Shown here piece after piece: positions 411-55,049 of a stretch of DNA of 64,000 bases. Made by a program: the position numbers and the translations under genes. The DNA comes from an uncultured Pseudomonadota bacterium (GTDB lineage: Bacteria > Pseudomonadota > Alphaproteobacteria > Rs-D84). Numbering within the stretch: the first letter of the stretch is position 1; every line of letters begins with the position of its first letter. Below the pieces are notes generated by a model. That model made no database searches. It was not told the DNA's origin and was given only the letters and a program-made list of their open reading frames with translations. Where the stretch lies: positions 2,757 through 66,756 of the forward strand of contig CADAHF010000001.1 in the NCBI GenBank assembly GCA_902787665.1. Direction: 5' to 3'.

Positions 411-1709
411 CTATTTCTTGCTCTCACCATATGCCTTGGCCCAGGACTTTGCGGTTTTATATGTGTCTTGGATGACGGTTTTGATGTCTTCGGCAAATTT
501 TTTGCCAGTACCATCGTCCAATCCATCAAGTTTTTTATCGGTAACAATCTTACGTGCAGTATCGTCTGCCTTGTTTGCAAGCCATGCTGTTAATGCGCCA
601 GTAAGCAATAATGGTATAAATCCATCGTTTTGTAATGTTGGTATTTGGGTTGATGTATTTGTATCAATTACCCCAGACAACAATGCGGCACAAATCGCAA
701 TAACAATAGACAATGTTATAAAATAAATCGTTGCATTGATAAATCTGTTTATTTGTTTATCAAGTTTTACTTCGCCCCCATTAAACAGACCAATAAACGA
801 ATTAAATATATTACCAATTGGTCCCTTATATGATGTCTGCGGAACTGTTTCTGCAAATGCGGTAAATGGTAATAACAACACCCCCAAGAATAAGTTCATA
901 ATAACCGATAATGCCATTAATGCAAATTTCCATGTGTTCCATGCAAATATCACAACAAATATCGCGCCCATGACAAATGTAAATATACTGTGTCCGACAC
1001 CCGCTATCATCCATTTCCAACCTGTTGCAATTGCGGTTACAAAAAATCCAGAAAGGCGTGTTGGTAAACATAAAACATCTGCAGCGGCGGTTGCATCTAC
1101 TATCATACCAGATGGCACTGTCGTCGCGGCATATTGATGAATCGCACCACATGTGTCTGGAATTGTTATGCCAGCTGTTGCGGTTATTGCGTTTAATATA
1201 AAGTCCGCAATAAATGTCCCCAGCGCTATGACAGGTCCAACAACATACAGAAATAATTTGGCGGGACCAATTTGCAATACGGATATCCAAATAATAAGAA
1301 TGATTGATTTTTTGACTATTTCTTTGACCAGTTTGTTTGCATTACTGTCGCCAGTCATCATATTATATGCTTCCAGTGTTATCCAAAAAGCATACATAAT
1401 AATTATAAATATAATCATAAATCTAATAAATGATGTATCCAGTATTTTTGCAATTTGGTTAAGGCCGTTCATCATCGCGATGCCAACGCGTGCCTCAACC
1501 GGAACATAGTCACGTGTAATTTGATTTTGAAACGCAGATTGAAATTCTACCAAATCACCGTGTTCACCAACAAGATTATCAACAAAGATTTGTCTGTTGT
1601 GTTCCGTTGCAAAAATATCACCAGTTTCGGCAAAAGATGATGTGACACACATCACAAGTAATGTTGCGATAATTATTTTCGATAAAAATTTAACTATGTG
1701 TTTTATCAA
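411..1709 (-). CDS. VirB6/TrbL-like polytopic inner-membrane protein, paralog 1 (T4SS)
   Basis: 432 aa. N-terminal signal/anchor helix, a periplasmic loop of about 60 aa, then at least 5 TM helices rich in W/F/G, and a Lys-rich C-terminal tail. Its ATG overlaps the stop of the upstream paralog (ATGA). It is one of five paralogs with the same architecture. Confidence 0.5.
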   Translation of the reverse strand: MIKHIVKFLSKIIIATLLVMCVTSSFAETGDIFATEHNRQIFVDNLVGEHGDLVEFQSAFQNQITRDYVPVEARVGIAMMNGLNQIAKILDTSFIRFMIIFIIIMYAFWITLEAYNMMTGDSNANKLVKEIVKKSIILIIWISVLQIGPAKLFLYVVGPVIALGTFIADFILNAITATAGITIPDTCGAIHQYAATTVPSGMIVDATAAADVLCLPTRLSGFFVTAIATGWKWMIAGVGHSIFTFVMGAIFVVIFAWNTWKFALMALSVIMNLFLGVLLLPFTAFAETVPQTSYKGPIGNIFNSFIGLFNGGEVKLDKQINRFINATIYFITLSIVIAICAALLSGVIDTNTSTQIPTLQNDGFIPLLLTGALTAWLANKADDTARKIVTDKKLDGLDDGTGKKFAEDIKTVIQDTYKTAKSWAKAYGESKK

Positions 1710-3145
1710 CTTTTCTTACCCATTCCTGCGGTTATCTTTTCTGTGATTTGTACTGGCAGATTCCAAATGTTTTTACCCAATTGTTTTATGTTGCCGCCAA
1801 AGTCAAAATCAGATTCGTCCTTAACCGGTGCAAAGATTTTATCAATTTCTGGTGATACAACCCAATAGTATAATGCAAATATGCCAATCATCATCATTAA
1901 AAATCCCCATCCGTCACTCAGGAAATCAAATGCACCCGGATAACGACGTTCAACAGTTGCGCGATGTGCAGTAAAACAGTTTTTAAATTTACCAGCATCC
2001 ATTTTGCCGTCCACCAATGCGACATGTTCGCATTCGGTAAAAGTGTTCATTACTGATAATGTTTTTGCGTCTGGGTTTTGTATTGTTTGCGACAACATTG
2101 GTGGTAATACCGTACTGAACCCATCGACTGGTCCTGGAAAATGTGCATCAGCAGCAAAAGATACCGTTGCATAAATCACAATGATTTTAAGTGATATTGC
2201 AACAATCTTGACCGCAGCAGTTGCCAACATTCCAATCGCTTTTGTGAACAAACCAGATGCTGTTTTCCAAACATTTTCAAAAGCTGCGGCGGCGATAAAT
2301 ATCGGCATAAATATAATTATGAATATCAATTTAAATACAACAGATAAGACCTGGAAAAATAAATCAAAACCGATTACCAAAAACATTATAACCAACATAA
2401 GCCCTGCAAGCCATGTTATTGCGCCACCACCCATACCCATCCATGCATAATTCATCATTGAAAAGCCCCCGGCAGCGCCCGCTAGCATTGTTGCATTAAG
2501 GTTGCCAATGGAACACATGAACGGTTGTAATACGGGGTTTAATATGTCGTCGTTTTTTTCAACCGTGTCTAATGCACCGCATTTTGTTGAATCAGAAACG
2601 CCTGTTGCTGCCATGCCAAGTTCTGCACCAACAAACATTACCGGTGTTACTGTTACGCGTGTTACATATCGCAACGCTGTTGTTCCACCCATACCAAGTG
2701 TTCCAAGTAATACACCACAAATTAAAATGCGACTGCCGGTACGCCATACTTTGTCGAACCATGGCTTTAATTCAATTTTCTTTTCAGATGTATCAATTTT
2801 AGCAGTCTTTTTTGCTGCGTCATATATATATTGTCCAGTATGGATAAATAAAAATACACCAAAACCAATCGCCATAATTATCCACAACAGATTTACAATT
2901 TTTGACCAAAACATTTCTGTTGCGTCACCCAATACACCAAACAGGTCTGCAACATACTTACATAAAAAACATCCATTTGTATTTGCGATGTCACCTTCTG
3001 CACCAATTGCATTAAGGAAATTATCCATACTGGTGTATGTAATGGAATCGCCACTGATTGAAGACGATAAATACCAAATGCCCAATCCCAACGCGATTGC
3101 GCCGATTACAAATTTAACGATAAGCAAAATTATTTTTGCCTTCAT
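1706..3145 (-). CDS. VirB6/TrbL-like polytopic membrane protein, paralog 2
   Basis: 479 aa. Same topology as paralog 1. The N-terminal periplasmic loop carries a CxxC motif (NGCFLCKY). ATGA overlaps occur at both ends. Confidence 0.5.
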   Translation of the reverse strand: MKAKIILLIVKFVIGAIALGLGIWYLSSSISGDSITYTSMDNFLNAIGAEGDIANTNGCFLCKYVADLFGVLGDATEMFWSKIVNLLWIIMAIGFGVFLFIHTGQYIYDAAKKTAKIDTSEKKIELKPWFDKVWRTGSRILICGVLLGTLGMGGTTALRYVTRVTVTPVMFVGAELGMAATGVSDSTKCGALDTVEKNDDILNPVLQPFMCSIGNLNATMLAGAAGGFSMMNYAWMGMGGGAITWLAGLMLVIMFLVIGFDLFFQVLSVVFKLIFIIIFMPIFIAAAAFENVWKTASGLFTKAIGMLATAAVKIVAISLKIIVIYATVSFAADAHFPGPVDGFSTVLPPMLSQTIQNPDAKTLSVMNTFTECEHVALVDGKMDAGKFKNCFTAHRATVERRYPGAFDFLSDGWGFLMMMIGIFALYYWVVSPEIDKIFAPVKDESDFDFGGNIKQLGKNIWNLPVQITEKITAGMGKKS

Positions 3146-4347
3146 TTTTTATCGTCTTTCTTTTCTTCTTTCTTGTCTCCACCAGAAATGATGGTTGTGC
3201 CAACTTTCTTGACCGTATCAAATGTTGCCATGGTTAATGTTTCAACATCGTTTGCCAGTTGTTCGCTTAATGGTTTTTCCGGATTCAAGTTAAATGCAGA
3301 CATAACCATATTTGATACATTTGGTATTTGGTCTTGTATAAAGTTTATCACATATATCAATGCGACCATCCCCATTAATGTTATGGATAATATGTTTTCG
3401 CCAGACAAATCCATATCAAATATATTTCCTGTTGTAATTGCGTTCATAATGTCTACCGTTCCAGTATCTGGGGATGAAAAGAACTTCGTAACAATTACCA
3501 TAATAACCGTATATGTTATAACTGCTGATGCCAGTGCTACAATTGCGTTAATAAGTTTTTTGATTTGTGTGCCACCAATGTTTTTGCCAAGTGCAGATAT
3601 CCACGCTGGTATGTCTTCTCCACTGCGAAAAGCGGTTAATACAAGTGATATTGGAAAGAAAAAAGCAAACATTGCCATTGCGACAATTATATCTGCGAAA
3701 TAACAACAAAATCTGAAAAACAACTTAAAGAAGCCATAGAAAATATATAATCCAATTGCAAATAAAATAACATGTTTAATTAATGCGCCAATTCCCAACA
3801 GCGCTTTCCAAGAAAAAGCCGTGTCCATTACAGCGACACCCATTTTCATATAGGATTGAAATTGTGTGATAGTTGTTTTCATCAGTACAATAATTTTGTC
3901 GCGCAGTTGTGGACGGAAAAAACCATCGTCTGATATTGGTAATGGTTGATAAGTTACCTTTTCATTAACAACACTTGAATCAATGTTTAGCATGCTTTGT
4001 GTATATATTGTCGCAATTTCTGCTGTTGGTTCAAAAGTGATTTGCGATATAAATCGTGGCAGAGTGACCCCAGTAAAAAGTAATGTCAATGCAATAAGCG
4101 AATTGATAATAACTGGGCGGACAGATTTTTGATACATGGGATCTGGGGCACCTTTTTTGATGTTTTGCCAAACCGCGTTAAGAACAAAAAATGCAAACAG
4201 TGTGCAAAACAAAATAGACATTAATAATGCCATACGGTCGTAAACACTTGCCGCCGCAGATGACACGATTTGAAACAGCCGATCAAATATCGGACATCCA
4301 TAACATTGGACAGTGTTATCAACAAAAGTGCCAATTACATTGTTCAT
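3142..4347 (-). CDS. VirB6/TrbL-like polytopic membrane protein, paralog 3
   Basis: 401 aa. CxxC in the N-terminal loop (QCYGCPIF), multiple TM helices, and a C-terminal tail KKEEKKDDKK. Translationally coupled to its neighbours. Confidence 0.5.
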   Translation of the reverse strand: MNNVIGTFVDNTVQCYGCPIFDRLFQIVSSAAASVYDRMALLMSILFCTLFAFFVLNAVWQNIKKGAPDPMYQKSVRPVIINSLIALTLLFTGVTLPRFISQITFEPTAEIATIYTQSMLNIDSSVVNEKVTYQPLPISDDGFFRPQLRDKIIVLMKTTITQFQSYMKMGVAVMDTAFSWKALLGIGALIKHVILFAIGLYIFYGFFKLFFRFCCYFADIIVAMAMFAFFFPISLVLTAFRSGEDIPAWISALGKNIGGTQIKKLINAIVALASAVITYTVIMVIVTKFFSSPDTGTVDIMNAITTGNIFDMDLSGENILSITLMGMVALIYVINFIQDQIPNVSNMVMSAFNLNPEKPLSEQLANDVETLTMATFDTVKKVGTTIISGGDKKEEKKDDKK

Positions 4348-5585
4348 TTGCTTTTAATCCATCCCACTGCTTTACCAATCGTTTTTCCTGTGCTTTTGAT
4401 ATTTCCCCACATTGTCTTTGTATCGCCTGTTACTTGGTTGTACAATGCCCCCATGTCTTTGCCTGCGTACGAATTTAATTGTTCGCGTGTTAAATTAAAT
4501 AATTTGAACATAAGATAGAAAGTCAATATTGATGACAACCATAATATAGAATGTTCGCCAAATGCGCCGTTGCTAATTACATCTGTGTCGCTGATAAAAA
4601 TTGAAGAATTCCATGTGAAAAGAGATTTTATTATCGCAACATTTATACCCAACATAAATGCACACATAATCATTGTGATAACAAGTTTTTTTAATGCGCT
4701 TGTTACCCCAGAAAACGCCGGCCAAATATCCAGCCATTTATCATTTGGTTTTGCAACATAAGACAAAACCTGGAACGGATAAAGTGTAAGCGCCATACCG
4801 AATTCAAAAATACCCTGTATAATAAGCAATGCCATAAACAAATTGCTGGCAAAGAAAGTTGATATTAAAATAAGACCAGTAATTATATTTAGAAACACAC
4901 CACCGCCATTTGGTACAAACATTCCGATCCCGGTTAAGCCACGCGTCAACGATTCAAACCCGCGTTTTATCATTGTGTTGTTTGCGGCTGACAAATCATA
5001 TACTGGCCTTATTAAAAAATCACAAGAAGATTTTGATATCCATGCTTTTTGAACGATAGATTCGGGACACTGCGCAACCCCAGTTGTTACACCAGTGTTT
5101 TGAATTGTTTCAGTTATGCTGTGCGTATAAAGTGAACCAAATTGCAGAAAAGGATTTACCAGAACTTCGGTTAAAACAACCGGGCGAATTTGTAATAATA
5201 AACCAGCGGCTATTATTGCACGAAAGCAGGGCTTCAAAACATTAAAAACAATTGTTTGTGGGTCGGCCTTGCCGTCAATCATTTCACCGCCACCAGAAAA
5301 ACCAAATGTTCCCAACCAATTTTTTGGCAGATACATTTTTACCAAATACATTGCAATAGTGATGGCCAAGAATCCCCAAACCAACAAATAAATTATGCCA
5401 TTGCCGTTTCCAACAAAAAATTCATATCCCCCAGATGCAATCGTCATCATCGCATCCAGTACCAATGGGACAAAAGGCGCCAGGTTGAACTTGTCAACAA
5501 AGCCACCGTCTGCCAATGCTGGCAACGGGACAACAAACATCGCCACTAATAAAAAACAAGGCAAAACTTTGCGAAAAAAATTCAT
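4344..5585 (-). CDS. VirB6/TrbL-like polytopic membrane protein, paralog 4 (first gene of the four-gene minus-strand operon)
   Basis: 413 aa. Cleavable-looking signal peptide (…PLPALADGG), multiple TM helices, Lys-rich C-terminus. Confidence 0.5.
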   Translation of the reverse strand: MNFFRKVLPCFLLVAMFVVPLPALADGGFVDKFNLAPFVPLVLDAMMTIASGGYEFFVGNGNGIIYLLVWGFLAITIAMYLVKMYLPKNWLGTFGFSGGGEMIDGKADPQTIVFNVLKPCFRAIIAAGLLLQIRPVVLTEVLVNPFLQFGSLYTHSITETIQNTGVTTGVAQCPESIVQKAWISKSSCDFLIRPVYDLSAANNTMIKRGFESLTRGLTGIGMFVPNGGGVFLNIITGLILISTFFASNLFMALLIIQGIFEFGMALTLYPFQVLSYVAKPNDKWLDIWPAFSGVTSALKKLVITMIMCAFMLGINVAIIKSLFTWNSSIFISDTDVISNGAFGEHSILWLSSILTFYLMFKLFNLTREQLNSYAGKDMGALYNQVTGDTKTMWGNIKSTGKTIGKAVGWIKSK

Positions 5586-5656
5586 TCTCTCTCTTATCTA
5601 TATTTTTATCTTTTCAATTATATCACATTTGGGACAAAATATGATATACTTAAAAC

Positions 5657-6943
5657 ATGCGTTGGTTAAAAAATTTTTGGTTGGTGTTTTTATCGTTCTT
5701 GCCGTTTTCGGCAGGCGCGGTTGCGCCATTGGTCGTTGGGGCGATTGCTGGCGGGGTTGTTTTGGCCGGTTTTTCAATATATCGCACATCAGTACCGGTG
5801 AATATGAGTGACGCTTTTCATTTCTTTTCATCGTGTTGGACATGCCAAATGTTTTCGGATGTTATCGGGACGGTTTCAAACGCTTTGCCCGGTATATATA
5901 GCACCATTGGTATGTTTATAATTCCGTTTACCGCGGCATTACTGGCAATATGGTTGGCGTGGCAGTTGATTGATAGTTATATGAACGGAAAAAATATAGA
6001 ACCATGGTCAATTACTGGTGATTTTGGTGTTCGTATATTAAAACTGGGGGTGGTGTGTGCAATGTTGGTTGCGCCACTGCCGCGTATGATAAACGATATT
6101 GCAATTGAACCGATTTTTAGCATTGGTATGTCGCTTAATCATGCGGTGACGGGGGACGAACGGTTTAATACTTGTGTTGTTGCAACCGCAATTGCGGACC
6201 CAGTATCAATATCAGATACAGCGGCATCTAAAGGCGCTTTTTCACCAAAATTGCGGCATAATTTGGCTTGTGAATTGGGTGTTGTTCATGAAATGACTGG
6301 AATTGGTATGACTGCGGGTTGGACATTGATGAATATGGCATTTAATGAACAATATATGCATAAAATTATGAACACCATACCGATATTCCCCAATGTTTTA
6401 GCTTTCTTTGCGGGTTTGTTGATAATTGTGCTGTTCTTTGCGGCGTTATTGCCAATACCATTGTTCTTTCTTGAGATTTTTGTGAAACTTGCGCTGGATT
6501 TGGTGATGTTGCCATTGTCTCTTATGGCGTGGATTTTCCCAGGTTGGTCGATTTTGCCAGATGGGCGGAAAAATATTAAATCAATTATAAATGATGTTGT
6601 TGCGGCAACAGTTGGAATTGCAATGACTGGAATATTCGTCACTTTTGCGGTTATGTTTATAAATGTGGCATTTGGTGCATGGGGTGGTGTGTCGGCGTTG
6701 TCGGCTGCATTTGCGCAAAACGATTCGCAAATTTTAATGGATGGTATAATGATGCGTAATGACAGTATCGTAACAATAATACTTATGGGTGTATTTATTG
6801 CCATGTTTATGGTATCTATTCCTGCGCTGGTTAAGAGTTTGTTCAACGTAACAATATCTGACGATTTTTATAAAACGACAAAAAACAATATCGAAACGGT
6901 GTGGGCAAACCTGCAGAAAATCTATAAAGAAATAAAAAAATAA
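5657..6943 (+). CDS. VirB6/TrbL-like polytopic membrane protein, paralog 5 (divergently transcribed)
   Basis: 428 aa. N-terminal TM helix, CxxC loop (SCWTCQMF), at least 6 TM helices, C-terminus ...KIYKEIKK. A 71-bp AT-rich divergent intergenic region (5586-5656) separates it from paralog 4. Confidence 0.45.
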   Translation: MRWLKNFWLVFLSFLPFSAGAVAPLVVGAIAGGVVLAGFSIYRTSVPVNMSDAFHFFSSCWTCQMFSDVIGTVSNALPGIYSTIGMFIIPFTAALLAIWLAWQLIDSYMNGKNIEPWSITGDFGVRILKLGVVCAMLVAPLPRMINDIAIEPIFSIGMSLNHAVTGDERFNTCVVATAIADPVSISDTAASKGAFSPKLRHNLACELGVVHEMTGIGMTAGWTLMNMAFNEQYMHKIMNTIPIFPNVLAFFAGLLIIVLFFAALLPIPLFFLEIFVKLALDLVMLPLSLMAWIFPGWSILPDGRKNIKSIINDVVAATVGIAMTGIFVTFAVMFINVAFGAWGGVSALSAAFAQNDSQILMDGIMMRNDSIVTIILMGVFIAMFMVSIPALVKSLFNVTISDDFYKTTKNNIETVWANLQKIYKEIKK

Positions 6944-7011: not shown

Positions 7012-7521
7012 ATGAAGCAGTTTCCGATTCTTTATTGGCCGCGTAAGACAACTGGGGATACGATATACCAGTTGGCGCGTAAGGTTATAAATTCGGCAAC
7101 TGGTGAAATGCCTGATGTTGTTACATCTGATTTGGACTTTCCAAAGATATTCGAATCGAATCCAAATGCGGTCGTTTATTACCCAGTGTTTTGCGAATCG
7201 ACGGGCTGGTGGGGTGAATTGTTGGGGGGTGGCGCGGTTGTCACTGATAAGATAATAATTTCCCCGGAATGTCAGTTGATGGTTATAAAGGCGGAAAATA
7301 ATGCTACGGCACATGGTTCACATCAATTGTTTGCAGCAGAAATTTACCCAGCAAGTGGATTCTTTAAGAAAATGAATTCATCAATTGCAACGGTCGCAGA
7401 TATGTTGGCCACAGACGCCGGAACAATTCTGGCGCTTTTTTCAGGAAAAAATCAGAATCAGTTTGTAAATGTGTTGGAAATGACCGGAAATTCTTACCTT
7501 GGGTGTATTGGTCATTATTAA
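7012..7521 (+). CDS. hypothetical protein (169 aa, no signal peptide or TM)
   Basis: Clean ORF directly downstream of VirB6 paralog 5. No family recognised by eye. Confidence 0.35.
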   Translation: MKQFPILYWPRKTTGDTIYQLARKVINSATGEMPDVVTSDLDFPKIFESNPNAVVYYPVFCESTGWWGELLGGGAVVTDKIIISPECQLMVIKAENNATAHGSHQLFAAEIYPASGFFKKMNSSIATVADMLATDAGTILALFSGKNQNQFVNVLEMTGNSYLGCIGHY

Positions 7522-36480: not shown

Positions 36481-36690
36481 ATGGCCGAAGATAACAGTAA
36501 AAAATATTGTGGTTTGTTTGATTGCCATGTTGTGCAATCTGAACATAATAAAAACGGAACGTGTAAATGCTTAACGTGTATGGGGTTGCGTTGTGAAAAC
36601 TGTCAGCAATATAAAGATTTGCGGGACGAAGCAGACAAAAACGATTGGGTAAAACTAGAACGTTGTATAAGCTGCAAAAAACAAAGATGA
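36481..36690 (+). CDS. small cysteine-rich protein (8-9 Cys), paralog A
   Basis: 69 aa. RBS AAGGAAA. Shares with paralog B the pattern C-x4-C-x12-CKCLxC-…-C-x2-C-…-RCIxCxKQ and the SEHNxNG motif. Confidence 0.5.
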   Translation: MAEDNSKKYCGLFDCHVVQSEHNKNGTCKCLTCMGLRCENCQQYKDLRDEADKNDWVKLERCISCKKQR

Positions 36691-36715: not shown

Positions 36716-36964
36716 ATGGCAGAAAACAAAGCACCAACATGGCTTGATACACATCCTTTTTGTGCATTTATGAGCTGTAATGTACTTGTTTCTGAACATA
36801 ATAACAATGGTGAATGTAAGTGTTTGTCATGTCATCCAGGAACCGGGTACTGTAATAATGGTTGTTCATGGTATGAAAGTTTGATGCAAGAACGTTGGAA
36901 CGAAGAAACAAGTTTTGATAATCGGTGTATAAGGTGTATGAAACAACAAGAAAAACAAAAATGA
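36716..36964 (+). CDS. small cysteine-rich protein, paralog B
   Basis: 82 aa. RBS AAAGGAA. Same Cys framework as paralog A. Its stop overlaps the truA start (ATGA). Confidence 0.5.
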   Translation: MAENKAPTWLDTHPFCAFMSCNVLVSEHNNNGECKCLSCHPGTGYCNNGCSWYESLMQERWNEETSFDNRCIRCMKQQEKQK

Positions 36965-49787: not shown

Positions 49788-50132
49788 TTATTTTTCTAAC
49801 CAACCGCATTCTAAAGCCGCCGTTTCAATTGTGTTCATTGCATCCCGCCATAATGCCGCTGCACGATTTTCAGACCATATATATTGGTGTGGTGCACGTC
49901 GCCGGTCACCAAATTTTTTCATAACAGCCAATTGTTCATCACTTAATTTCCCACACAGATAAAGTTTGGTTATTAATGTTTCGACATCTAATAATTCACA
50001 CGGTCTGCGTGTTGGTGTGCCGTGGTAATGCGTATATCCATTTTGAACAGATTTAGAATATAAAAACCAAAACCATAATTGTTCTGCATTGTGAAACTTT
50101 TCCTGATTGTATGCCATTTGGGTTTGTGTCAT
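49788..50132 (-). CDS. hypothetical small protein (114 aa), possible HTH-like segment
   Basis: Strong RBS AAGGAG 9 nt upstream of the ATG. It lies immediately downstream of the virB8-10 operon terminators. No family recognised. Confidence 0.4.
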   Translation of the reverse strand: MTQTQMAYNQEKFHNAEQLWFWFLYSKSVQNGYTHYHGTPTRRPCELLDVETLITKLYLCGKLSDEQLAVMKKFGDRRRAPHQYIWSENRAAALWRDAMNTIETAALECGWLEK

Positions 50133-50429: not shown

Positions 50430-52775
50430 CTACAATATCGGCGGGAAACAATCGCCACCAACTTCGGGACAGCAATTAAATCCCTGGTCGCCCATATCTG
50501 TATAAATTTCACCAGCACAACAACCATTTGCATCTGGATTAGAACCGTCTGTACATTTTATTACTGCTTCTGATGCATTGTTTCCAGAAGAAGAGTTCTT
50601 GAACGGATTTTCAATTGTGCCGTTATCGTTGTATTTTAACCCAAGAACTTGTTCATTATATTTCTGTGTTCCTTTGCCACCTGTGCTGGCAATACTGTTA
50701 GTATTAGATGGATCTTGTTGATTTTGATAAACCGCTTGTTGTTTTGCATTATTAATTGCCTCATAATTACTGGCCTGACAATATGCGACAAGCGTGCTGT
50801 ATGAATAACCCAATTTCTGTAATTCTTCGCGCACTGTATCATATGATTTTGCAGTTATAATACCATTTTTAGGTTCACACAGATTACCCAAATTAAATGA
50901 ACGTGCCTGACCAACCCAAGTACCATCGTTATAATCTGCATATGCACCCCATTTTGGTGTGCTGCGTACATTATTTGCCATGGCGGTACGAACCATACAT
51001 TTTTCGTTTGTTGTGCACGCAACCATTAAATCATTTGGAGAATATACTGTAATACGTGTTCCAGCCGGAATCGTAAATGGCGGAACGGTATTATCCATCA
51101 TATCAACCAATAATTTTTGTGCAACCTGATTCCAAGCAGTTATGATTTCGTTTTTTGCAAGTTCAGAAGAACGCATGGTCCCACTTTGCACAACGGTGTT
51201 ATTATCCAAATCAATTTGGTTTACGAATTTATCAGCAACCGGTGCAATCATATTAACAGCCGCTGGAACAATAGATGTTAACATTGGCATAACGAATTGT
51301 TCTAAGTAATCGGTACTGCCCCGTCCAGGAACACCAATACGACCCTGGGCGTCGGCAGAAACAGGTTCGTCATTTGCAAAATTAAATTCAACACCATTTG
51401 GTAAAACAAATTGATACCATTTTATGTTCATACGACCGATTGCCTTATAAGGACCAGGTACTTGACCGGTGACATAACCCAACAACAATGTTCCTGTTGG
51501 AATTATTATTGTTCGACCATTGTCTGAATACACATTACGGTCAACCGTTGCGCGAACAGGAAAATGTAAGTTATCTGCATCCAATGCCGTATCAGCACGA
51601 ACATCCGATACAATTGTTGCAGGAATTGGTTTATATTGACGAAGGATAAATGTTCTGTCATATGGTTGTGTTGACACGACAACAGTTTGGTCTGTGGTAT
51701 CAAATATTGCATCTTTGATTGGTGCTGGATTTAATGTAATGCGACCCATTTCACCGATTGGTTCGCTTGCCACAGATGTTGGACGATTTGCAACACGTGC
51801 ACGTGGTGCGTCCATAAGTGTCGGCATTAAACCGGTTGTCAAAGCAGAATTTATATGTTCTGCATCAGTACCGATTTTTTTGCCAGCATCATTAATATCT
51901 GTAATCAAACCCGTTCCAGGATTATATATCCCAGTTGCGTTTTTACAATTGCGATCAGAAAACAGATAGAAATAATAACCACCGTGTTCTGGTTTTATCC
52001 AACCATTTTGAGTGCCATATACATCATACCCAGGAAACGCAAAGTCAGAACAACTTTCGCTTGGGTGGACAACCGGTGCAACAGATGGTTCCGTTGCTGT
52101 CGGCAATTTTGTTTTGGTTGTTTTAACAGGTTCTGTTGCAAATGGATCTGATGGCGCAATAGATTTAACCTCTTGTTCAATTTTTGTAGCTGTTGTTGGC
52201 GCAACATATTCAGGTTCATCAAAATCATTGATTTGTTTTTTTGGTGTTACAACTGATTTTGGTTTTTCAATTTGCTCTGGTGCGGATGCGCCCAAAACCA
52301 CCATAACTTTTTCCGCAGATTTCATTTCTTCGGGTTCGTTTTCGCCACGCCAATATATAGATAATGTTAATGTTTCTGGTTTTGCGGCAACAGTCGGCGC
52401 ATATTCCAAAAATACATTACATGAAATTTTGGCATTTATAACGGCGGCATCTGTGCATGTGGTTTTTGCACTAAAACCAGCAACAGTTTTATTTTGACCC
52501 ATTGATACCTTAGCAGGGGCGGTTGTTTTCACAGATATGGTTTGTGTCTTTTTTTCGCCAACGGTTACATTTGCCCAATCGACAGTATCGGCCGACAAAG
52601 TTATTTTCACAGGGACATCTTCTTTGACTGGTGCGGCAGATTTATTTTTTGTTCCAGTCAGTAATAATGTTAACAAAATCAATACCACAATGAATGTTGC
52701 ACCCAAAAGCAACCATTGAACTTGCTTTGGGGTCGAGTCACGCATATTTAAAAATTGTTGTTTTAATTTGTTCAT
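50430..52775 (-). CDS. virB10: T4SS VirB10/TrbI-family protein, enlarged (~780 aa) with extra N-terminal periplasmic domains and a Cys-rich ~200-aa C-terminal extension
   Basis: Cytoplasmic N-terminus and one TM helix (WLLLGATFIVVLILLTLLL). The conserved VirB10 C-terminal barrel region is present (…DRNVYSDNGRTIIIPTGTLLLGYV…RIGVPGRG…GTRITVYSPNDL…). The ATG at 52775 is preferred over the GTG at 52793. Confidence 0.75.
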   Translation of the reverse strand: MNKLKQQFLNMRDSTPKQVQWLLLGATFIVVLILLTLLLTGTKNKSAAPVKEDVPVKITLSADTVDWANVTVGEKKTQTISVKTTAPAKVSMGQNKTVAGFSAKTTCTDAAVINAKISCNVFLEYAPTVAAKPETLTLSIYWRGENEPEEMKSAEKVMVVLGASAPEQIEKPKSVVTPKKQINDFDEPEYVAPTTATKIEQEVKSIAPSDPFATEPVKTTKTKLPTATEPSVAPVVHPSESCSDFAFPGYDVYGTQNGWIKPEHGGYYFYLFSDRNCKNATGIYNPGTGLITDINDAGKKIGTDAEHINSALTTGLMPTLMDAPRARVANRPTSVASEPIGEMGRITLNPAPIKDAIFDTTDQTVVVSTQPYDRTFILRQYKPIPATIVSDVRADTALDADNLHFPVRATVDRNVYSDNGRTIIIPTGTLLLGYVTGQVPGPYKAIGRMNIKWYQFVLPNGVEFNFANDEPVSADAQGRIGVPGRGSTDYLEQFVMPMLTSIVPAAVNMIAPVADKFVNQIDLDNNTVVQSGTMRSSELAKNEIITAWNQVAQKLLVDMMDNTVPPFTIPAGTRITVYSPNDLMVACTTNEKCMVRTAMANNVRSTPKWGAYADYNDGTWVGQARSFNLGNLCEPKNGIITAKSYDTVREELQKLGYSYSTLVAYCQASNYEAINNAKQQAVYQNQQDPSNTNSIASTGGKGTQKYNEQVLGLKYNDNGTIENPFKNSSSGNNASEAVIKCTDGSNPDANGCCAGEIYTDMGDQGFNCCPEVGGDCFPPIL

Positions 52776-52807
52776 ATTACAACATATCCGCACTTGTTAT
52801 TACAATC

Positions 52808-54349
52808 TTATTGAATACGAACGACACTGCAACTTGCACCACTGAACTTTAACAATTGGTCACACAGTTTTTGTGCCGCATCAATATCACTCATTGGACC
52901 AATGCGCAAACGATACAAGCGTGCCGCAGATGCGCCCGACCCAAGATCGCCAACACCCTGTTCGTCAACAGCAAAGAACACCTTGTCTTTATATGGGGTC
53001 AATATTCCTTGTCCATTGTCGCCACTGAATTTAGCAAGCAAATCAACCCAGTAATCATTTAACGCCTTGACCGAAGAATCTGATTTCAATTCAACGGCAA
53101 CACCAGCCTGATTGCTTGTAATAAGTGGAATGTTTGATTGTGGCAAATATGAACCAGCCGTAACGCGTTCTGTTGGCATCATTGTTACACCACCTGCAGA
53201 TTGTGTCATTGGTGTTATTGTTGCAGGTTGTGGATATGCCTGGCCAGCAACGAAGCCGGTTGGCATATAATAGCCAGCCGCGGCATTGTTGGACATATCG
53301 CCAATCATAACAGGTGTCCCGGTATTATTCACACCAGCACTATTTATGGCGGCCATATCATAACCATAAGCCATATTGTTCAACGATTGTCCCGACATCA
53401 TAGATTGTGCAACATTTGCCTCAGCCAAAGCCATAACAGATGCGGTATCAGTAATCAAGAATGGTTTTTCACGTTTTTTGATACATACGATACGTTGACC
53501 ACTGCGCAAGACCATGTCGCCAACCGCTTCGACAATAATCAAACGGCCGTCTTCACCATCGGTACGGAAACCAACAGGGGATTCGCCACCTTCGACCAAC
53601 AATGAAACCACCGGACGTTGAGTCATGGATATAACCTTGTCACCGAAATCAATATATGTGAATATACGGTCACGCCATACACGTTCAGGCGCAATTACAT
53701 AATCGTCTGGATTTGGAACAAAGATATCCAAATCAAAGCGAAATTCAGAAGGGTCGATTTTCATTGATTTTATCCAGCCATAATCTTCGCCATCAACACC
53801 GACCGTGTTTGATTTTTGGGCACTCTTTTTAAATACAGATGACATCGTGCCATTTGGCATTGTTGTGCCGGTTGCATTTGGCAAAGTTGCGCCACCGTCC
53901 ATTACAACTTCGACCTGAGAATAGGTAACCTCAGACGAATTGGATGGTTCTGCACGCAGATAGAATATGTATTTGTTGCCAGATTTACCAGTAACAATCA
54001 AATTAGTATCACCACCTTGGACCCCAGAATTTGGTGTTAAATACATAACGTTTGTGCCAGCGGTACCTTCAAATTTAAACAAACCATCGTCGCCAAACAT
54101 ACCATCTTCGATTTGTTCGCCGTTTGGCAATGTAACCATCGTAACCATGCCACTGCGCAATTTGATTGGTAAAACCGTTCCTTTGGACCAGGACAATTGT
54201 GCATAACCAGGTTTGGTGCTGCCCGATGTCATATTTGCACTTGGGTTATTCCACGCATTCTGTGCAGAAAATGCCGACATTGGCATGGCGCAAACACAAG
54301 CCAAGCACAATAAAGAAATGTTCAACTTAATCGTTCTTGAAAATATCAT
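52808..54349 (-). CDS. virB9: T4SS VirB9/TrbG-family protein fused to a C-terminal FtsN-like SPOR domain
   Basis: Signal peptide (…LLCLACVCAMPMSAFSA). VirB9 N-domain (…PIKLRSGMVTMVTLPNGEQIEDGMFGDD…NLIVTGKSGNKYIFYLRAE…) and C-domain (…IFTYIDFGDKV…RLIIVEAVGDMVLRSGQRIVCIKK…). The terminal ~95 aa are SPOR-like and carry a Cys pair (…LYRLRIGPMSDIDAAQKLCDQLLKFSGASCSVVRIQ). RBS AAAGGAAAGG before the ATG at 54349. Confidence 0.7.
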   Translation of the reverse strand: MIFSRTIKLNISLLCLACVCAMPMSAFSAQNAWNNPSANMTSGSTKPGYAQLSWSKGTVLPIKLRSGMVTMVTLPNGEQIEDGMFGDDGLFKFEGTAGTNVMYLTPNSGVQGGDTNLIVTGKSGNKYIFYLRAEPSNSSEVTYSQVEVVMDGGATLPNATGTTMPNGTMSSVFKKSAQKSNTVGVDGEDYGWIKSMKIDPSEFRFDLDIFVPNPDDYVIAPERVWRDRIFTYIDFGDKVISMTQRPVVSLLVEGGESPVGFRTDGEDGRLIIVEAVGDMVLRSGQRIVCIKKREKPFLITDTASVMALAEANVAQSMMSGQSLNNMAYGYDMAAINSAGVNNTGTPVMIGDMSNNAAAGYYMPTGFVAGQAYPQPATITPMTQSAGGVTMMPTERVTAGSYLPQSNIPLITSNQAGVAVELKSDSSVKALNDYWVDLLAKFSGDNGQGILTPYKDKVFFAVDEQGVGDLGSGASAARLYRLRIGPMSDIDAAQKLCDQLLKFSGASCSVVRIQ

Positions 54350-54371
54350 GTCCTTTCCTTTCTCTGCTTTA

Positions 54372-55049
54372 CTATTCCCTGCCAATGACGAACGCATCAA
54401 GCGGATCACCATCGCCAGATTCAACCGTGTATTCTGCAACACGCAAGCCCAATGGATTTTCCATATGGTCGGTCCAACGCATCGCATTTGCATCATCGGT
54501 TACCAGTGTTATCTTTATTCTATAATCTTTTCGGTCGGTCTGTCCATAACTATTTGTACAAAACCATTTGAAATCAACAGTATATACCGAACCGTCAGAT
54601 GTGTATTTATTTACACTGCCCGGGGAAAATTCCACCGAACAAGAAAAATCAAAACTGCCGTTATTCAGCAAGAATTCTTGATACATCGCAGTGCCCGCAA
54701 ATCCAGCAAAAATATCGTCCGAAGACATTGTTTTTATGGTGCCGTTCTGCATACCCCAATTTTTCTCCATAGTGCGAACACTGGGGCTAACCTCATTACG
54801 TGTTTTGATATATTCGGCAATAAAAGCGCGTTTATAGCGTTCTAAATCATCACCATCTGGCATAACCTGGGTAAGTGTAACCTGGGCATTGTTCGGGTTG
54901 ACGGAACGTAGAAAGAACACCTCTGGTCTATCAAGAGGAAACATTTTATACAGTGTTATCAGCAGCGCAGCCAGCACAACCAACGTTGCCGCAAAGACAA
55001 GCGTCAAAACCCGAGACAGTAAAATTGGCGGTTCTATGCGGTTTTGCAC
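54372..55049 (-). CDS. virB8: T4SS VirB8/TrbF-family protein
   Basis: 225 aa, bitopic, with N-terminal TM helix LLSRVLTLVFAATLVVLAALLITL. NTF2-like periplasmic domain ending with the VirB8-like NPLGLRVAEYTV motif. The GTG start is preceded by the strong RBS GGGGGAGA. Confidence 0.55.
   Translation of the reverse strand: MQNRIEPPILLSRVLTLVFAATLVVLAALLITLYKMFPLDRPEVFFLRSVNPNNAQVTLTQVMPDGDDLERYKRAFIAEYIKTRNEVSPSVRTMEKNWGMQNGTIKTMSSDDIFAGFAGTAMYQEFLLNNGSFDFSCSVEFSPGSVNKYTSDGSVYTVDFKWFCTNSYGQTDRKDYRIKITLVTDDANAMRWTDHMENPLGLRVAEYTVESGDGDPLDAFVIGRE

What the first reader, a model, noticed from the sequence alone, without database searches (positions are those of the whole stretch)
411..6943. Island of five paralogous VirB6/TrbL-like membrane proteins, detached from virB3/virB4
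Four ORFs of about 400-480 aa sit head-to-tail on the minus strand with ATGA start/stop overlaps, which implies tight translational coupling. A fifth is divergent across a 71-bp AT-rich region. All five share one architecture: an N-terminal signal/anchor helix, a periplasmic loop of about 55-80 aa, at least 5 Trp/Phe/Gly-rich TM helices, and Lys-rich C-terminal tails. That is the VirB6/TrbL topology. A run of VirB6 paralogs is the hallmark of the Rickettsiales vir homolog (rvh) T4SS. There, however, the virB6 genes directly follow virB3-virB4, and the proteins are usually much larger. Here the block is bounded by a uvrD-like gene on one side and rpmE on the other, with no virB3 or virB4 in 64 kb. 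This may be an undescribed VirB6 arrangement or a new family of VirB6-like channels.
Basis: partly seen in the sequence, partly recalled or inferred. Interest (0 to 1): 0.75.

Follow-up and report, generated by a model that had tools for sequence, protein, structure and literature searches.

The report
Five hidden VirB6 secretion-channel paralogs
A tiny-genome gut bacterium (Candidatus Enterousia lineage) keeps five very divergent copies of VirB6, the central channel/stalk protein of type IV secretion machines, as part of a scattered secretion system that standard annotation misses.

Summary
The five ORFs are real: four overlapping genes on the minus strand and a fifth across a 71-bp AT-rich spacer. 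None hits Pfam PF04610 or any NCBIfam model, and direct profile comparison with canonical VirB6 is not significant.

Other evidence shows they are VirB6-fold proteins.
- The E profile reaches distant relatives, and 21 of 63 match PF04610, three above Pfam's cutoff.
- Profile comparisons connect all five families.

A solitary virD4 lies near the block in two related genomes.

The block is vertically inherited, not mobile. It is syntenic in about 80 species-level genomes of Ca. Enterousia (order Rs-D84, genomes under 1 Mb), with exactly five copies in 78 of 83 loci and dN/dS of 0.06-0.16.

Best reading: stalk/channel subunits of an rvh-like, scattered chromosomal T4SS in a lineage where none is described. 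VirB4 could not be searched genome-wide. The VirB6-like reading is supported. Novelty: new variant of a known kind.

The parts
411..1709 (-). Paralog A (432 aa, TTG start). VirB6-like, last gene of the four-gene operon, belongs to the subgroup without the N-terminal CxxC motif.
   Evidence: ORF. hhalign: A-D 93.8%, A-E 82%. The A-family HMM hits P0220 at 8e-7 and P0191 at 8e-6; P0191 is a C-family representative. Signal-peptide-like N-terminus and 5 hydrophobic segments. dN/dS 0.12-0.16.
1706..3145 (-). Paralog B (479 aa). VirB6-like, CxxC at residues 59-62.
   Evidence: ORF. BLASTP: B-E 3.5e-6, B-C 1.6e-4. The B-family HMM hits P0239 at 4.5e-17 and P0220 at 4e-12; both are also hit by the C and E families. 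It also hits the PF04610-positive protein P0198 at 8.6e-6. dN/dS 0.06-0.09.
3142..4347 (-). Paralog C (401 aa). VirB6-like, CxxC at residues 15-18, no N-terminal hydrophobic helix.
   Evidence: ORF. C-E: BLASTP 5e-14 over 382 aa and hhalign 97%. Shares 48 distant relatives with E at E<=1e-3. Hydropathy.
4344..5585 (-). Paralog D (413 aa). VirB6-like, first gene of the four-gene operon, signal-peptide-like N-terminus (ALA|D).
5586..5656 (.). 71-bp, 77% A+T divergent control region with two back-to-back extended -10-like boxes. GTGATATAAT on the minus strand points at D-C-B-A. TGATATACT on the plus strand ends 6 nt before E's ATG.
   Evidence: Sequence. The core TTTTCAATTATATCAC-ATTTGGG.CAAAAT.TGATATACTTAAA is nearly invariant across 65 loci whose proteins are only about 60% identical. 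Promoter-like matches on both strands at 5622-5650(+) and 5669-5641(-); promoter-like matches are not enriched over the region as a whole.
5657..6943 (+). Paralog E (428 aa). VirB6-like, CxxC at residues 60-63, divergently transcribed.
7012..7521 (+). ORF F (169 aa, soluble). Always sits directly downstream of E. Function unknown, and its membership in the system is unproven.
   Evidence: Syntenic in 82 loci with median 76% identity. dN/dS 0.04-0.07. No Pfam, NCBIfam, PHROG or PDB hit. Unrelated to A-E.
54372..55049 (-). virB8 homolog (225 aa), first gene of the second T4SS islet.
   Evidence: PF04335 VirB8, E=7.7e-11, 42.7 bits against a cutoff of 23.2.
52808..54496 (-). virB9 homolog (562 aa) with a C-terminal SPOR domain.
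   Evidence: PF03524 CagX 1.8e-20 and PF05036 SPOR 1.1e-4. TIGR02781 VirB9 at 48 bits, far below its cutoff of 218.
50430..52793 (-). virB10 homolog (787 aa), unusually long, with a Cys-rich C-terminal tail.
   Evidence: PF03743 TrbI 2.4e-19. NF038091 VirB10 at 65 bits and NF038092 ComB10 at 56 bits, both below cutoff.

Best explanation
The five genes encode highly diverged members of the VirB6 (TrbL/TrwI/DotA) superfamily. VirB6 is the polytopic subunit that anchors in the inner membrane and forms the central pentameric stalk or proto-channel of a type IV secretion system. It sits between the inner-membrane ATPase complex and the VirB9/VirB10 outer-membrane core.

These genes belong to a chromosomal, vertically inherited T4SS. 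Its genes are scattered in small islets among housekeeping genes, as in the Rickettsiales vir homolog (rvh) system:
- five virB6 copies at 0.4-6.9 kb;
- virB8-virB9-virB10 at 50.4-55.0 kb;
- a solitary virD4 elsewhere.

The host belongs to the reduced-genome gut lineage Candidatus Enterousia (order Rs-D84).

**Shown:** the fold, the paralogy, the transitive link to PF04610, the presence of virB8/9/10 in the window and of virD4 in relatives, conservation and purifying selection.

**Inferred:**
- A, B, D and E are exported or anchored through N-terminal signal helices, and C inserts N-out.
- Conserved Cys residues (the CxxC motif plus a loop pair) form periplasmic disulfides.
- D-C-B-A are made in matched amounts by translational coupling, and E is co-regulated from the mirrored promoter.
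- The products assemble into the stalk through which VirD4-recruited substrates, either effectors or DNA, are delivered to a partner cell on which this metabolically dependent bacterium relies.
For: **Fold.**
- Foldseek's top 4 hits are all TrwI chains.

**Sequence.**
- The E profile finds 185 representatives among 1.84 billion proteins.
- 21 of 63 distant hits match PF04610.
- P0198, P0246 and P0256 exceed the Pfam gathering score, at 34.5, 32.7 and 26.3 bits.
- For P0174, P0179, P0246 and P0256 the TrbL match overlaps the region matched by the E profile.

**Paralogy.**

**T4SS context.**
- VirB8, VirB9 and VirB10 are in the window.
- VirD4 (PF02534, 178 bits) stands alone between rpsO/truB and rsmE in L077, and next to suhB in L045.

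**Inheritance.**
- Same synteny in about 80 species-level genomes.
- Exactly five copies in 78 of 83 loci and never more.
- dN/dS 0.06-0.16.
- Near-invariant bidirectional promoter region.

**Lifestyle.** Rs-D84 genomes are under 1 Mb and lack the TCA cycle, respiration and standard transporters. They are predicted to be obligate symbionts or parasites (PMC12306168).

**VirB6 role.** Pentameric stalk in R388 and Dot/Icm (PMC12857230).
Against: - No direct hit of any of the five proteins to PF04610 or to NCBIfam VirB6 models.
- No PDB sequence hit even with a profile.
- hhalign against Agrobacterium VirB6, and against a 4-sequence canonical VirB6 profile, is not significant at below 1%.
- Both AF2 models are only of moderate confidence (pLDDT 64 and 59).
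- VirB4, the universal T4SS ATPase, was not found in the window or in any fetched flank, and whole genomes could not be searched. VirB11, VirB2, VirB3 and VirB5 were not found either.
- The genes are not adjacent to any other T4SS gene.
Confidence: 0.8

Rival explanations
1. The five proteins have a VirB6-derived fold but no longer work in a T4SS. They were co-opted as autonomous envelope channels or transporters, for example for nutrient or nucleotide uptake, in a bacterium that lacks standard transporters.
For: - The block is not adjacent to any T4SS gene.
- VirB4 and VirB11 were not found in the available sequence.
- PMC12306168 notes that Rs-D84 genomes lack standard transporters and encode many hypothetical membrane proteins that may fill that role.
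Against: - virB8/9/10 are retained intact in the same window, and virD4 in relatives, in genomes under 1 Mb. That argues for a working machine that needs a VirB6.
- No other VirB6 candidate exists in the window.
- In R388, VirB6 does not itself form a membrane channel (PMC12857230).
Confidence: 0.1
2. The block is the remnant of an integrated conjugative element or plasmid transfer region, that is, a mobile island in decay.
For: - VirB6/TrbL proteins are typical of conjugative elements.
- The block has slightly lower GC (0.375-0.39) than the window average of about 0.40-0.42.
Against: - Same position between uvrD and rpmE in about 80 species-level genomes, with protein divergence down to 40-60% identity.
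- All five genes are intact and under purifying selection.
- No integrase, relaxase or repeats were noted in the flanks.
- The neighbours are housekeeping genes.
Confidence: 0.03
3. These are unrelated polytopic membrane proteins, and the VirB6 resemblance is an artefact of generic helical bundles in low-confidence models.
For: - pLDDT is only 59-64.
- There is no direct Pfam hit.
Against: - Two independent models built from different alignments pick the same top two targets, TrwI then DotA, out of 48,164 chains, covering 94% of TrwI.
- Foldseek agrees.
- An independent sequence route reaches PF04610 above its gathering score.
- T4SS partner genes are present.
Confidence: 0.03

Closest known systems
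RvhB6a-e, the tandem VirB6 paralogs of the Rickettsiales vir homolog (rvh) T4SS (Gillespie et al. 2009, PMC2653234)
   Same: - Several tandem, mutually very divergent VirB6 paralogs: five in Rickettsia, four in Wolbachia.
- Kept in a reduced genome.
- T4SS genes scattered in islets among housekeeping genes and inherited vertically.
- The VirB6/TrbL domains of RvhB6 average 413 aa, about the full length of A-E.
   Different: - Not downstream of virB3-virB4.
- Arranged as a 4+1 divergent pair of transcription units.
- The proteins are domain-only (401-479 aa) and lack the long flanking extensions of RvhB6 (674-1154 aa).
- Not recognised by PF04610.
- virB8-9-10 is not followed by virB11-virD4.
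- The host is Rs-D84/Enterousia, an extracellular-looking gut lineage not classified in Rickettsiales by GTDB.
- Whether the duplications are shared with rvh or arose independently was not tested.
TrwI (VirB6) of plasmid R388, PDB 7o3v/8rt9, and Agrobacterium VirB6
   Same: - Best structural match for both modelled paralogs.
- Same general hydrophobic multi-helix architecture with a central loop.
   Different: - 11-14% identity, with no detectable direct sequence or profile similarity.
- A-E are 100-200 aa longer.
- TrwI and VirB6 are single-copy and encoded inside a contiguous virB operon next to virB5 and virB7/8.
DotA of the Legionella Dot/Icm T4SS (PDB 9ngy)
   Same: - Second-best structural match for both models.
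- Forms a pentameric proto-channel with a VirB5-like partner (PMC12857230).
   Different: - DotA is far larger (857 residues modelled).
- It belongs to the type IVB system.
- It is single-copy.
Extended VirB6-like arrays in other uncultured Alphaproteobacteria, found here (L084, L085, L089, L090)
   Same: - Same superfamily by the E-family HMM.
- Tandem runs of 3-5 paralogs that are also not next to virB4.
- The CWxC motif is shared.
   Different: - The proteins are 400-1500 aa, some fused to M23 peptidase and VgrG3-like domains.
- The arrays in L084 and L089 are preceded by a small two-TM protein that is absent in Enterousia.

Membership tests
VirB6/TrbL superfamily (PF04610; T4SS stalk / inner-membrane subunit) | Direct significant match to the PF04610 profile or to NCBIfam VirB6 models | tested here: not met
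   No PF04610 hit for A-E even at E<=1. No NCBIfam hit.
VirB6/TrbL superfamily (PF04610; T4SS stalk / inner-membrane subunit) | Profile-level similarity to canonical single-copy VirB6 proteins | tested here: not met
   hhalign of each family against Agrobacterium VirB6, and against a 4-sequence profile of plasmid VirB6 proteins, gives probability below 1%. The reference profile is shallow, so this is a weak negative.
VirB6/TrbL superfamily (PF04610; T4SS stalk / inner-membrane subunit) | Transitive sequence homology through intermediates that are themselves PF04610 members | tested here: met
   The E profile matches P0198, P0246 and P0256 at E between 1.5e-8 and 2.5e-5 against 1.84 billion proteins. 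These score 34.5, 32.7 and 26.3 bits on PF04610, above the gathering score of 25.9, and for P0246 and P0256 the TrbL match overlaps the E-profile match. 21 of 63 distant relatives match at E<=0.01.
VirB6/TrbL superfamily (PF04610; T4SS stalk / inner-membrane subunit) | VirB6 fold | tested here: met
VirB6/TrbL superfamily (PF04610; T4SS stalk / inner-membrane subunit) | Five or more hydrophobic helices with a large central hydrophilic loop | tested here: met
   Kyte-Doolittle scan finds 5-6 hydrophobic segments and a central loop of 54-87 aa in all five.
VirB6/TrbL superfamily (PF04610; T4SS stalk / inner-membrane subunit) | Essential invariant Trp just after the conserved TM/cytoplasmic region (Gillespie 2009) | tested here: inconclusive
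   B, C, D and E have a conserved Trp 13-26 residues after a conserved intramembrane Pro. In Agrobacterium VirB6 the matching spacing (Pro in IGPL to W197) is about 21 residues. A has no such Trp. No reliable alignment to VirB6 could be made to confirm that these positions are equivalent.
VirB6/TrbL superfamily (PF04610; T4SS stalk / inner-membrane subunit) | Encoded together with other T4SS components | tested here: met
   Same replicon but not adjacent. virB8/9/10 lie 45 kb away in the window. virD4 lies within 10 kb of the block in L045 and L077.
VirB6/TrbL superfamily (PF04610; T4SS stalk / inner-membrane subunit) | Pentameric assembly at the centre of the machine | not testable with these tools
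   No multimer prediction was available. See next steps.
rvh-type (Rickettsiales vir homolog) T4SS | Several tandem, highly divergent virB6 paralogs | tested here: met
   Five paralogs that are at most 24% identical to each other.
rvh-type (Rickettsiales vir homolog) T4SS | virB6 array directly downstream of virB3-virB4 (islet A) | tested here: not met
   The block is bounded by uvrD and by F/rpmE here and in about 80 genomes. No VirB4-like ORF is in the window or the flanks.
rvh-type (Rickettsiales vir homolog) T4SS | Genes scattered in islets among housekeeping genes and inherited vertically | tested here: met
   Three separate islets were seen: the virB6 block, virB8-10, and a solitary virD4. 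All are flanked by housekeeping genes, and synteny is conserved.
rvh-type (Rickettsiales vir homolog) T4SS | virB8-9-10-11-virD4 islet with duplicated virB8/virB9 | tested here: not met
   Only single virB8, virB9 and virB10 genes are present, followed by a 114-aa ORF and yidC. virD4 is elsewhere. virB11 was not found.
rvh-type (Rickettsiales vir homolog) T4SS | Extended VirB6 proteins (about 670-1150 aa) | tested here: not met
   A-E are 401-479 aa. Extended forms do occur in more distant relatives.
rvh-type (Rickettsiales vir homolog) T4SS | Host in order Rickettsiales (rvh is called 'a bona fide rickettsial signature', PMC11077975) | tested here: inconclusive
   GTDB places the hosts in order Rs-D84 according to PMC12306168. 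NCBI lists the genus as Alphaproteobacteria incertae sedis. Several record titles say 'uncultured Rickettsiales'. No phylogeny was built.
rvh-type (Rickettsiales vir homolog) T4SS | VirB4 present (duplicated) and VirB5 absent | not testable with these tools
Conjugative plasmid / ICE transfer region | Contiguous mating-pair-formation operon with relaxase or integrase, and variable genomic location | tested here: not met
   Fixed chromosomal position, housekeeping flanks and no mobility genes.

The most novel reading that the evidence does not exclude
The five paralogs are not redundant. They assemble one-of-each into a hetero-pentameric VirB6 stalk or proto-channel, possibly also taking over the missing VirB5 role.

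- The count is exactly five in every complete locus of about 80 species.
- Four of the genes are translationally coupled, and the fifth is driven from a mirrored, near-invariant promoter.
- All five are under purifying selection in genomes under 1 Mb.
- VirB6 and DotA are pentamers in the two solved machines.

If this is right, it would explain the long-standing puzzle of VirB6 multiplication in rvh-type systems. It would also mark a T4SS-dependent partner-associated lifestyle for a widespread gut lineage outside the classical Rickettsiales.
Probability: 0.2. Interest if true: 0.85.

Novelty: new variant of a known kind. Interest (0 to 1): 0.62.

Why it matters
**1. A secretion system that annotation does not see.**
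- All hits for A-E are labelled 'hypothetical' and carry no Pfam domain.
- VirB8, VirB9, VirB10 and VirD4 all score far below NCBIfam cutoffs.
- The genome paper on these bacteria never uses the word 'secretion'.
- A T4SS gives a concrete mechanism for the proposed partner-dependent lifestyle of Ca. Enterousia/Rs-D84. These bacteria are common in rumen, livestock and human gut metagenomes.

**2. rvh-like features beyond the recognised Rickettsiales.**
- The rvh hallmarks seen here are multiplied VirB6 genes and scattered islets.
- Either rvh is older or wider than thought, or VirB6 multiplication evolved convergently in reduced-genome Alphaproteobacteria.
- Related detached arrays occur in other uncultured Alphaproteobacteria.

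**3. A minimal test case for VirB6 duplication.**
- A recent preprint calls the function of rvh component duplications 'a mystery'.
- These domain-only proteins of 400-480 aa, with a strict count of five, are a tractable system for testing hetero-pentamer against alternative homo-pentamers, by multimer prediction or by reconstitution.

Tried and rejected
**Searches on A-E and F that found nothing**
- Pfam and NCBIfam on A-E: nothing.
- PHROGs on B, E and F: nothing.
- PDB sequence search with E alone and with its profile: nothing.
- hhalign of each family against Agrobacterium VirB6, and against a 4-member canonical VirB6 profile: not significant.

**Searches for other T4SS components**
- phmmer with Agrobacterium VirB1-11 and VirD4 against all ORFs of the window and 86 loci found only VirD4. 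It missed even the window's own VirB8/9/10, so it is insensitive.
- Clustering large ORFs in all flanks to find VirB4 found none. The Walker-A-like matches appear to be PBP1A, IF-2, PNPase and MutS, judged from their sequences; only MutS was confirmed by Pfam.
- The 807-aa gene with no Pfam hit upstream of uvrD in L001 is not VirB4. It is a Cys-rich secreted-type protein.
- The 770-aa (L084) and 922-aa (L089) genes that follow small two-TM ORFs are not VirB4. They are further VirB6-like proteins without a Walker A motif.
- Scan of small ORFs for VirB2, VirB3 or VirB7 in window gaps: no candidates.

**Hypotheses ruled out**
- The long E-family representatives (640-714 aa) are not E-F fusions. 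They carry unrelated C-terminal extensions.
- A mobile-island reading is rejected by the conserved synteny.

**Identifying F**
- PDB profile search: nothing.

**Tools or sources unavailable**
- The afdb50 library was unavailable.
- Exact look-up of the window's VirB10 returned nothing.
- The 2023 Enterousia paper is not held.
- PMC12306168 has no supplements held as text.

Full report
**Observation**

The window contains the five ORFs as described:
- A, 411-1709(-), 432 aa, TTG start
- B, 1706-3145(-), 479 aa
- C, 3142-4347(-), 401 aa
- D, 4344-5585(-), 413 aa
- E, 5657-6943(+), 428 aa

The three minus-strand junctions each overlap by 4 bp. Two read ATGA and the A/B junction reads TTGA. The D/E spacer is 71 bp and 77% A+T.

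A hydropathy scan finds 5-6 hydrophobic segments in every protein, a central hydrophilic loop of 54-87 aa, and a Lys-rich C-terminus. A and D start with what look like cleavable signal peptides.

B, C and E share an N-proximal CxxC motif. A and D lack it but keep a Cys pair in the central loop.

**Paralogy**

The five proteins are related only distantly.
- BLASTP gives C-E 5e-14 over 382 residues, B-E 3.5e-6, D-E 7e-6 and B-C 1.6e-4. A is marginal.
- With roughly 80-sequence alignments of each orthologous family, taken from related loci, hhalign gives collinear near-full-length matches: C-E 97%, A-D 94%, A-E 82%, A-B 75% and D-E 69%.
- Family HMMs also converge on shared distant proteins. P0220 is hit by A, B, C and E. 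P0239 is hit by B, C and E.

**What the proteins are**

Direct family searches fail.
- No Pfam hit, including PF04610, and no NCBIfam hit.
- No PDB sequence hit, even with a profile.
- hhalign against Agrobacterium VirB6, or against a small profile of annotated plasmid VirB6 proteins, is not significant.

Two other lines of evidence agree that they are VirB6-like.

1. Structure.
   - Foldseek's four best hits are all TrwI chains.
2. Sequence.
   - An exhaustive HMM search with the E profile finds 185 cluster representatives.
   - Of 63 distant full-length representatives, 21 match PF04610.
   - Three exceed Pfam's gathering score.
   - For the four bridging proteins whose coordinates could be compared, the TrbL match overlaps the E-profile match.

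The five are therefore members of the VirB6 superfamily, too diverged for direct recognition. A, B and C were not modelled. They are assigned through paralogy.

**Context**

The window is not free of T4SS genes, however. On the minus strand at 50.4-55.0 kb lie three of them:
- virB8 (PF04335, 42.7 bits against a cutoff of 23.2)
- virB9 (PF03524, with a C-terminal SPOR domain)
- virB10 (PF03743)

This islet is flanked by yidC on one side and by tRNA-Trp/secE/nusG on the other. The rest of the window is housekeeping.

In two related genomes a virD4 coupling-protein gene (PF02534, 178 bits) stands alone among rpsO, truB and rsmE, within 10 kb of the VirB6 block.

All these components score far below NCBIfam's naming cutoffs. 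That would explain why the system goes unannotated.

**Distribution and evolution**

Homologs of E occur in 280 stretches of species-representative genomes. The 80 loci fetched are all gut or rumen MAGs labelled Candidatus Enterousia, Alphaproteobacteria or 'uncultured Rickettsiales'. One is a circular 958-kb chromosome.

The arrangement uvrD / A-B-C-D / E-F / rpmE is conserved throughout.
- 78 of 83 loci have exactly five VirB6-like genes. The other five loci sit on contigs that end near the cluster, and none has more than five.
- dN/dS is 0.06-0.16 for all five, although dS is saturated.
- The D/E spacer has a near-invariant core that reads as two back-to-back extended -10 boxes. The box facing E ends 6 nt before its ATG.

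This is a vertically inherited core locus, not a mobile island.

According to PMC12306168, Enterousia belongs to GTDB order Rs-D84. Its genomes are under 1 Mb and lack the TCA cycle, respiration and standard transporters, and the predicted lifestyle is obligate symbiont or parasite. That paper does not mention any secretion system. A search for Rs-D84 together with 'secretion system' found only one paper, which was not opened; by its title it concerns camel rumen microbiota on lignocellulosic substrates, with the secretion term occurring once.

**Relatives**

More distant members of the family occur in other uncultured Alphaproteobacteria. They form tandem runs of 3-5 genes that are also not next to virB4.
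- L084 has five consecutive genes of 474-857 aa, preceded by an 86-aa two-TM protein.
- L089, from a human gut metagenome, has 922-, 771- and 1331-aa members preceded by a 71-aa two-TM protein.
- Some relatives are fusions of M23 peptidase, a VgrG3-like domain and VirB6.
- Some E orthologs carry C-terminal hydrophilic extensions, as extended VirB6 proteins do.

**Mechanism**

In the R388 and Dot/Icm structures, VirB6 and DotA form a central pentamer that links the inner-membrane complex to the outer-membrane core. This pentamer is proposed to open into the translocation channel (PMC12857230).

The most likely role of A-E is that stalk or proto-channel, in a T4SS whose core is the VirB8/9/10 encoded 45 kb away and whose substrates are recruited by VirD4. 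The following steps are inference, not shown:
- translational coupling of D-C-B-A to give matched amounts
- co-regulation of E from the mirrored promoter
- periplasmic disulfides at the conserved Cys residues
- delivery of effectors or DNA to a partner cell

**Comparison with known systems**

The closest known system is the Rickettsiales rvh T4SS.

Shared features:
- five (Rickettsia) or four (Wolbachia) tandem VirB6 paralogs
- about 80% divergence between duplicates
- genes scattered in islets (PMC2653234)

Differences:
- no virB3-virB4 upstream
- a 4+1 divergent layout
- domain-only proteins of 401-479 aa
- virB8-9-10 without virB11 or virD4
- a host that is not classified in Rickettsiales

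PMC11077975 calls rvh 'a bona fide rickettsial signature'. I do not file this locus as an rvh member. I file it as an rvh-like variant.

**Limits**

- VirB4, VirB11, VirB2, VirB3 and VirB5 are absent from the window and from all fetched flanks.
- The structural models are of moderate confidence.
- ORF F is a 169-aa soluble protein and the most conserved gene of the locus. It remains unidentified.

**Verdict**

The VirB6-like interpretation is supported. It is a new variant of a known kind, of moderate-to-high interest.

Noticed in passing
window 50430-55049 (-): A virB8-virB9-virB10 operon lies in the same window. VirB9 carries a C-terminal SPOR (peptidoglycan-binding) domain. VirB10 is 787 aa, with a choice-of-anchor-D-like region (residues 63-136) and a Cys-rich C-terminal tail. 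All three score far below NCBIfam cutoffs.
   Followed up: partly
window 7012-7521 (+): ORF F is a 169-aa soluble protein that always sits directly downstream of E. It is the most conserved gene of the locus (median 76% identity, dN/dS 0.04-0.07), has its own TGATATAAT box, and has no hit in Pfam, NCBIfam, PHROGs or PDB sequences.
   Followed up: partly
window 5586-5656: The D/E spacer has a near-invariant core (TTTTCAATTATATCAC-ATTTGGG.CAAAAT.TGATATACTTAAA) across 65 loci. It reads as two mirrored extended -10 boxes. The plus-strand box ends 6 nt before E's ATG, which suggests a leaderless or near-leaderless mRNA. Similar TGnTATAAT boxes precede F and rpmE.
   Followed up: partly
L045 3999-6260 (-); L077 17352-19595 (-): A solitary virD4 coupling-protein gene (PF02534, 172-178 bits) sits among housekeeping genes: rsmE and suhB in L045, and rpsO, truB and rsmE in L077. 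It lies within 10 kb of the VirB6 block in two Enterousia genomes and is absent from this window.
   Followed up: partly
L001 1-1856 (+), and 41 related loci: A large (about 600-800 aa) Cys-rich protein with a signal-peptide-like N-terminus is encoded upstream of RNase T and uvrD. It has no Pfam hit and is not VirB4. It could be a surface or secreted protein.
   Followed up: no
L089 8782-12777 (P0412/P0246); also P0232, P0236, P0256: Distant relatives of 1279-1497 aa, in human-gut and other metagenomes, fuse an M23 peptidase domain to a TrbL/VirB6 domain. P0246 and P0232 also carry a VgrG3-like C-terminal domain. This puts a cell-wall hydrolase and VirB6 in one polypeptide.
   Followed up: partly
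L084 4967-5227; L089 2119-2334: Small two-TM proteins (86 and 71 aa) immediately precede the VirB6-like arrays in two distant relatives. They may be VirB3-like. The Enterousia block has no counterpart.
   Followed up: no
window 49788-50132 (-): A 114-aa soluble ORF lies directly downstream of virB10. It has no hit in Pfam, NCBIfam or PHROGs.
   Followed up: partly
window 36481-36690 and 36716-36964 (+): Two small adjacent paralogous Cys-rich ORFs (69 and 82 aa, several CxxC motifs) lie in the gap upstream of truA.
   Followed up: no
P0121, P0123, P0127 (E-family representatives): Some E orthologs in related lineages are 640-714 aa. They carry a Gly-rich linker and an extra C-terminal globular domain, as extended VirB6 proteins do. 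These are not E-F fusions.
   Followed up: partly
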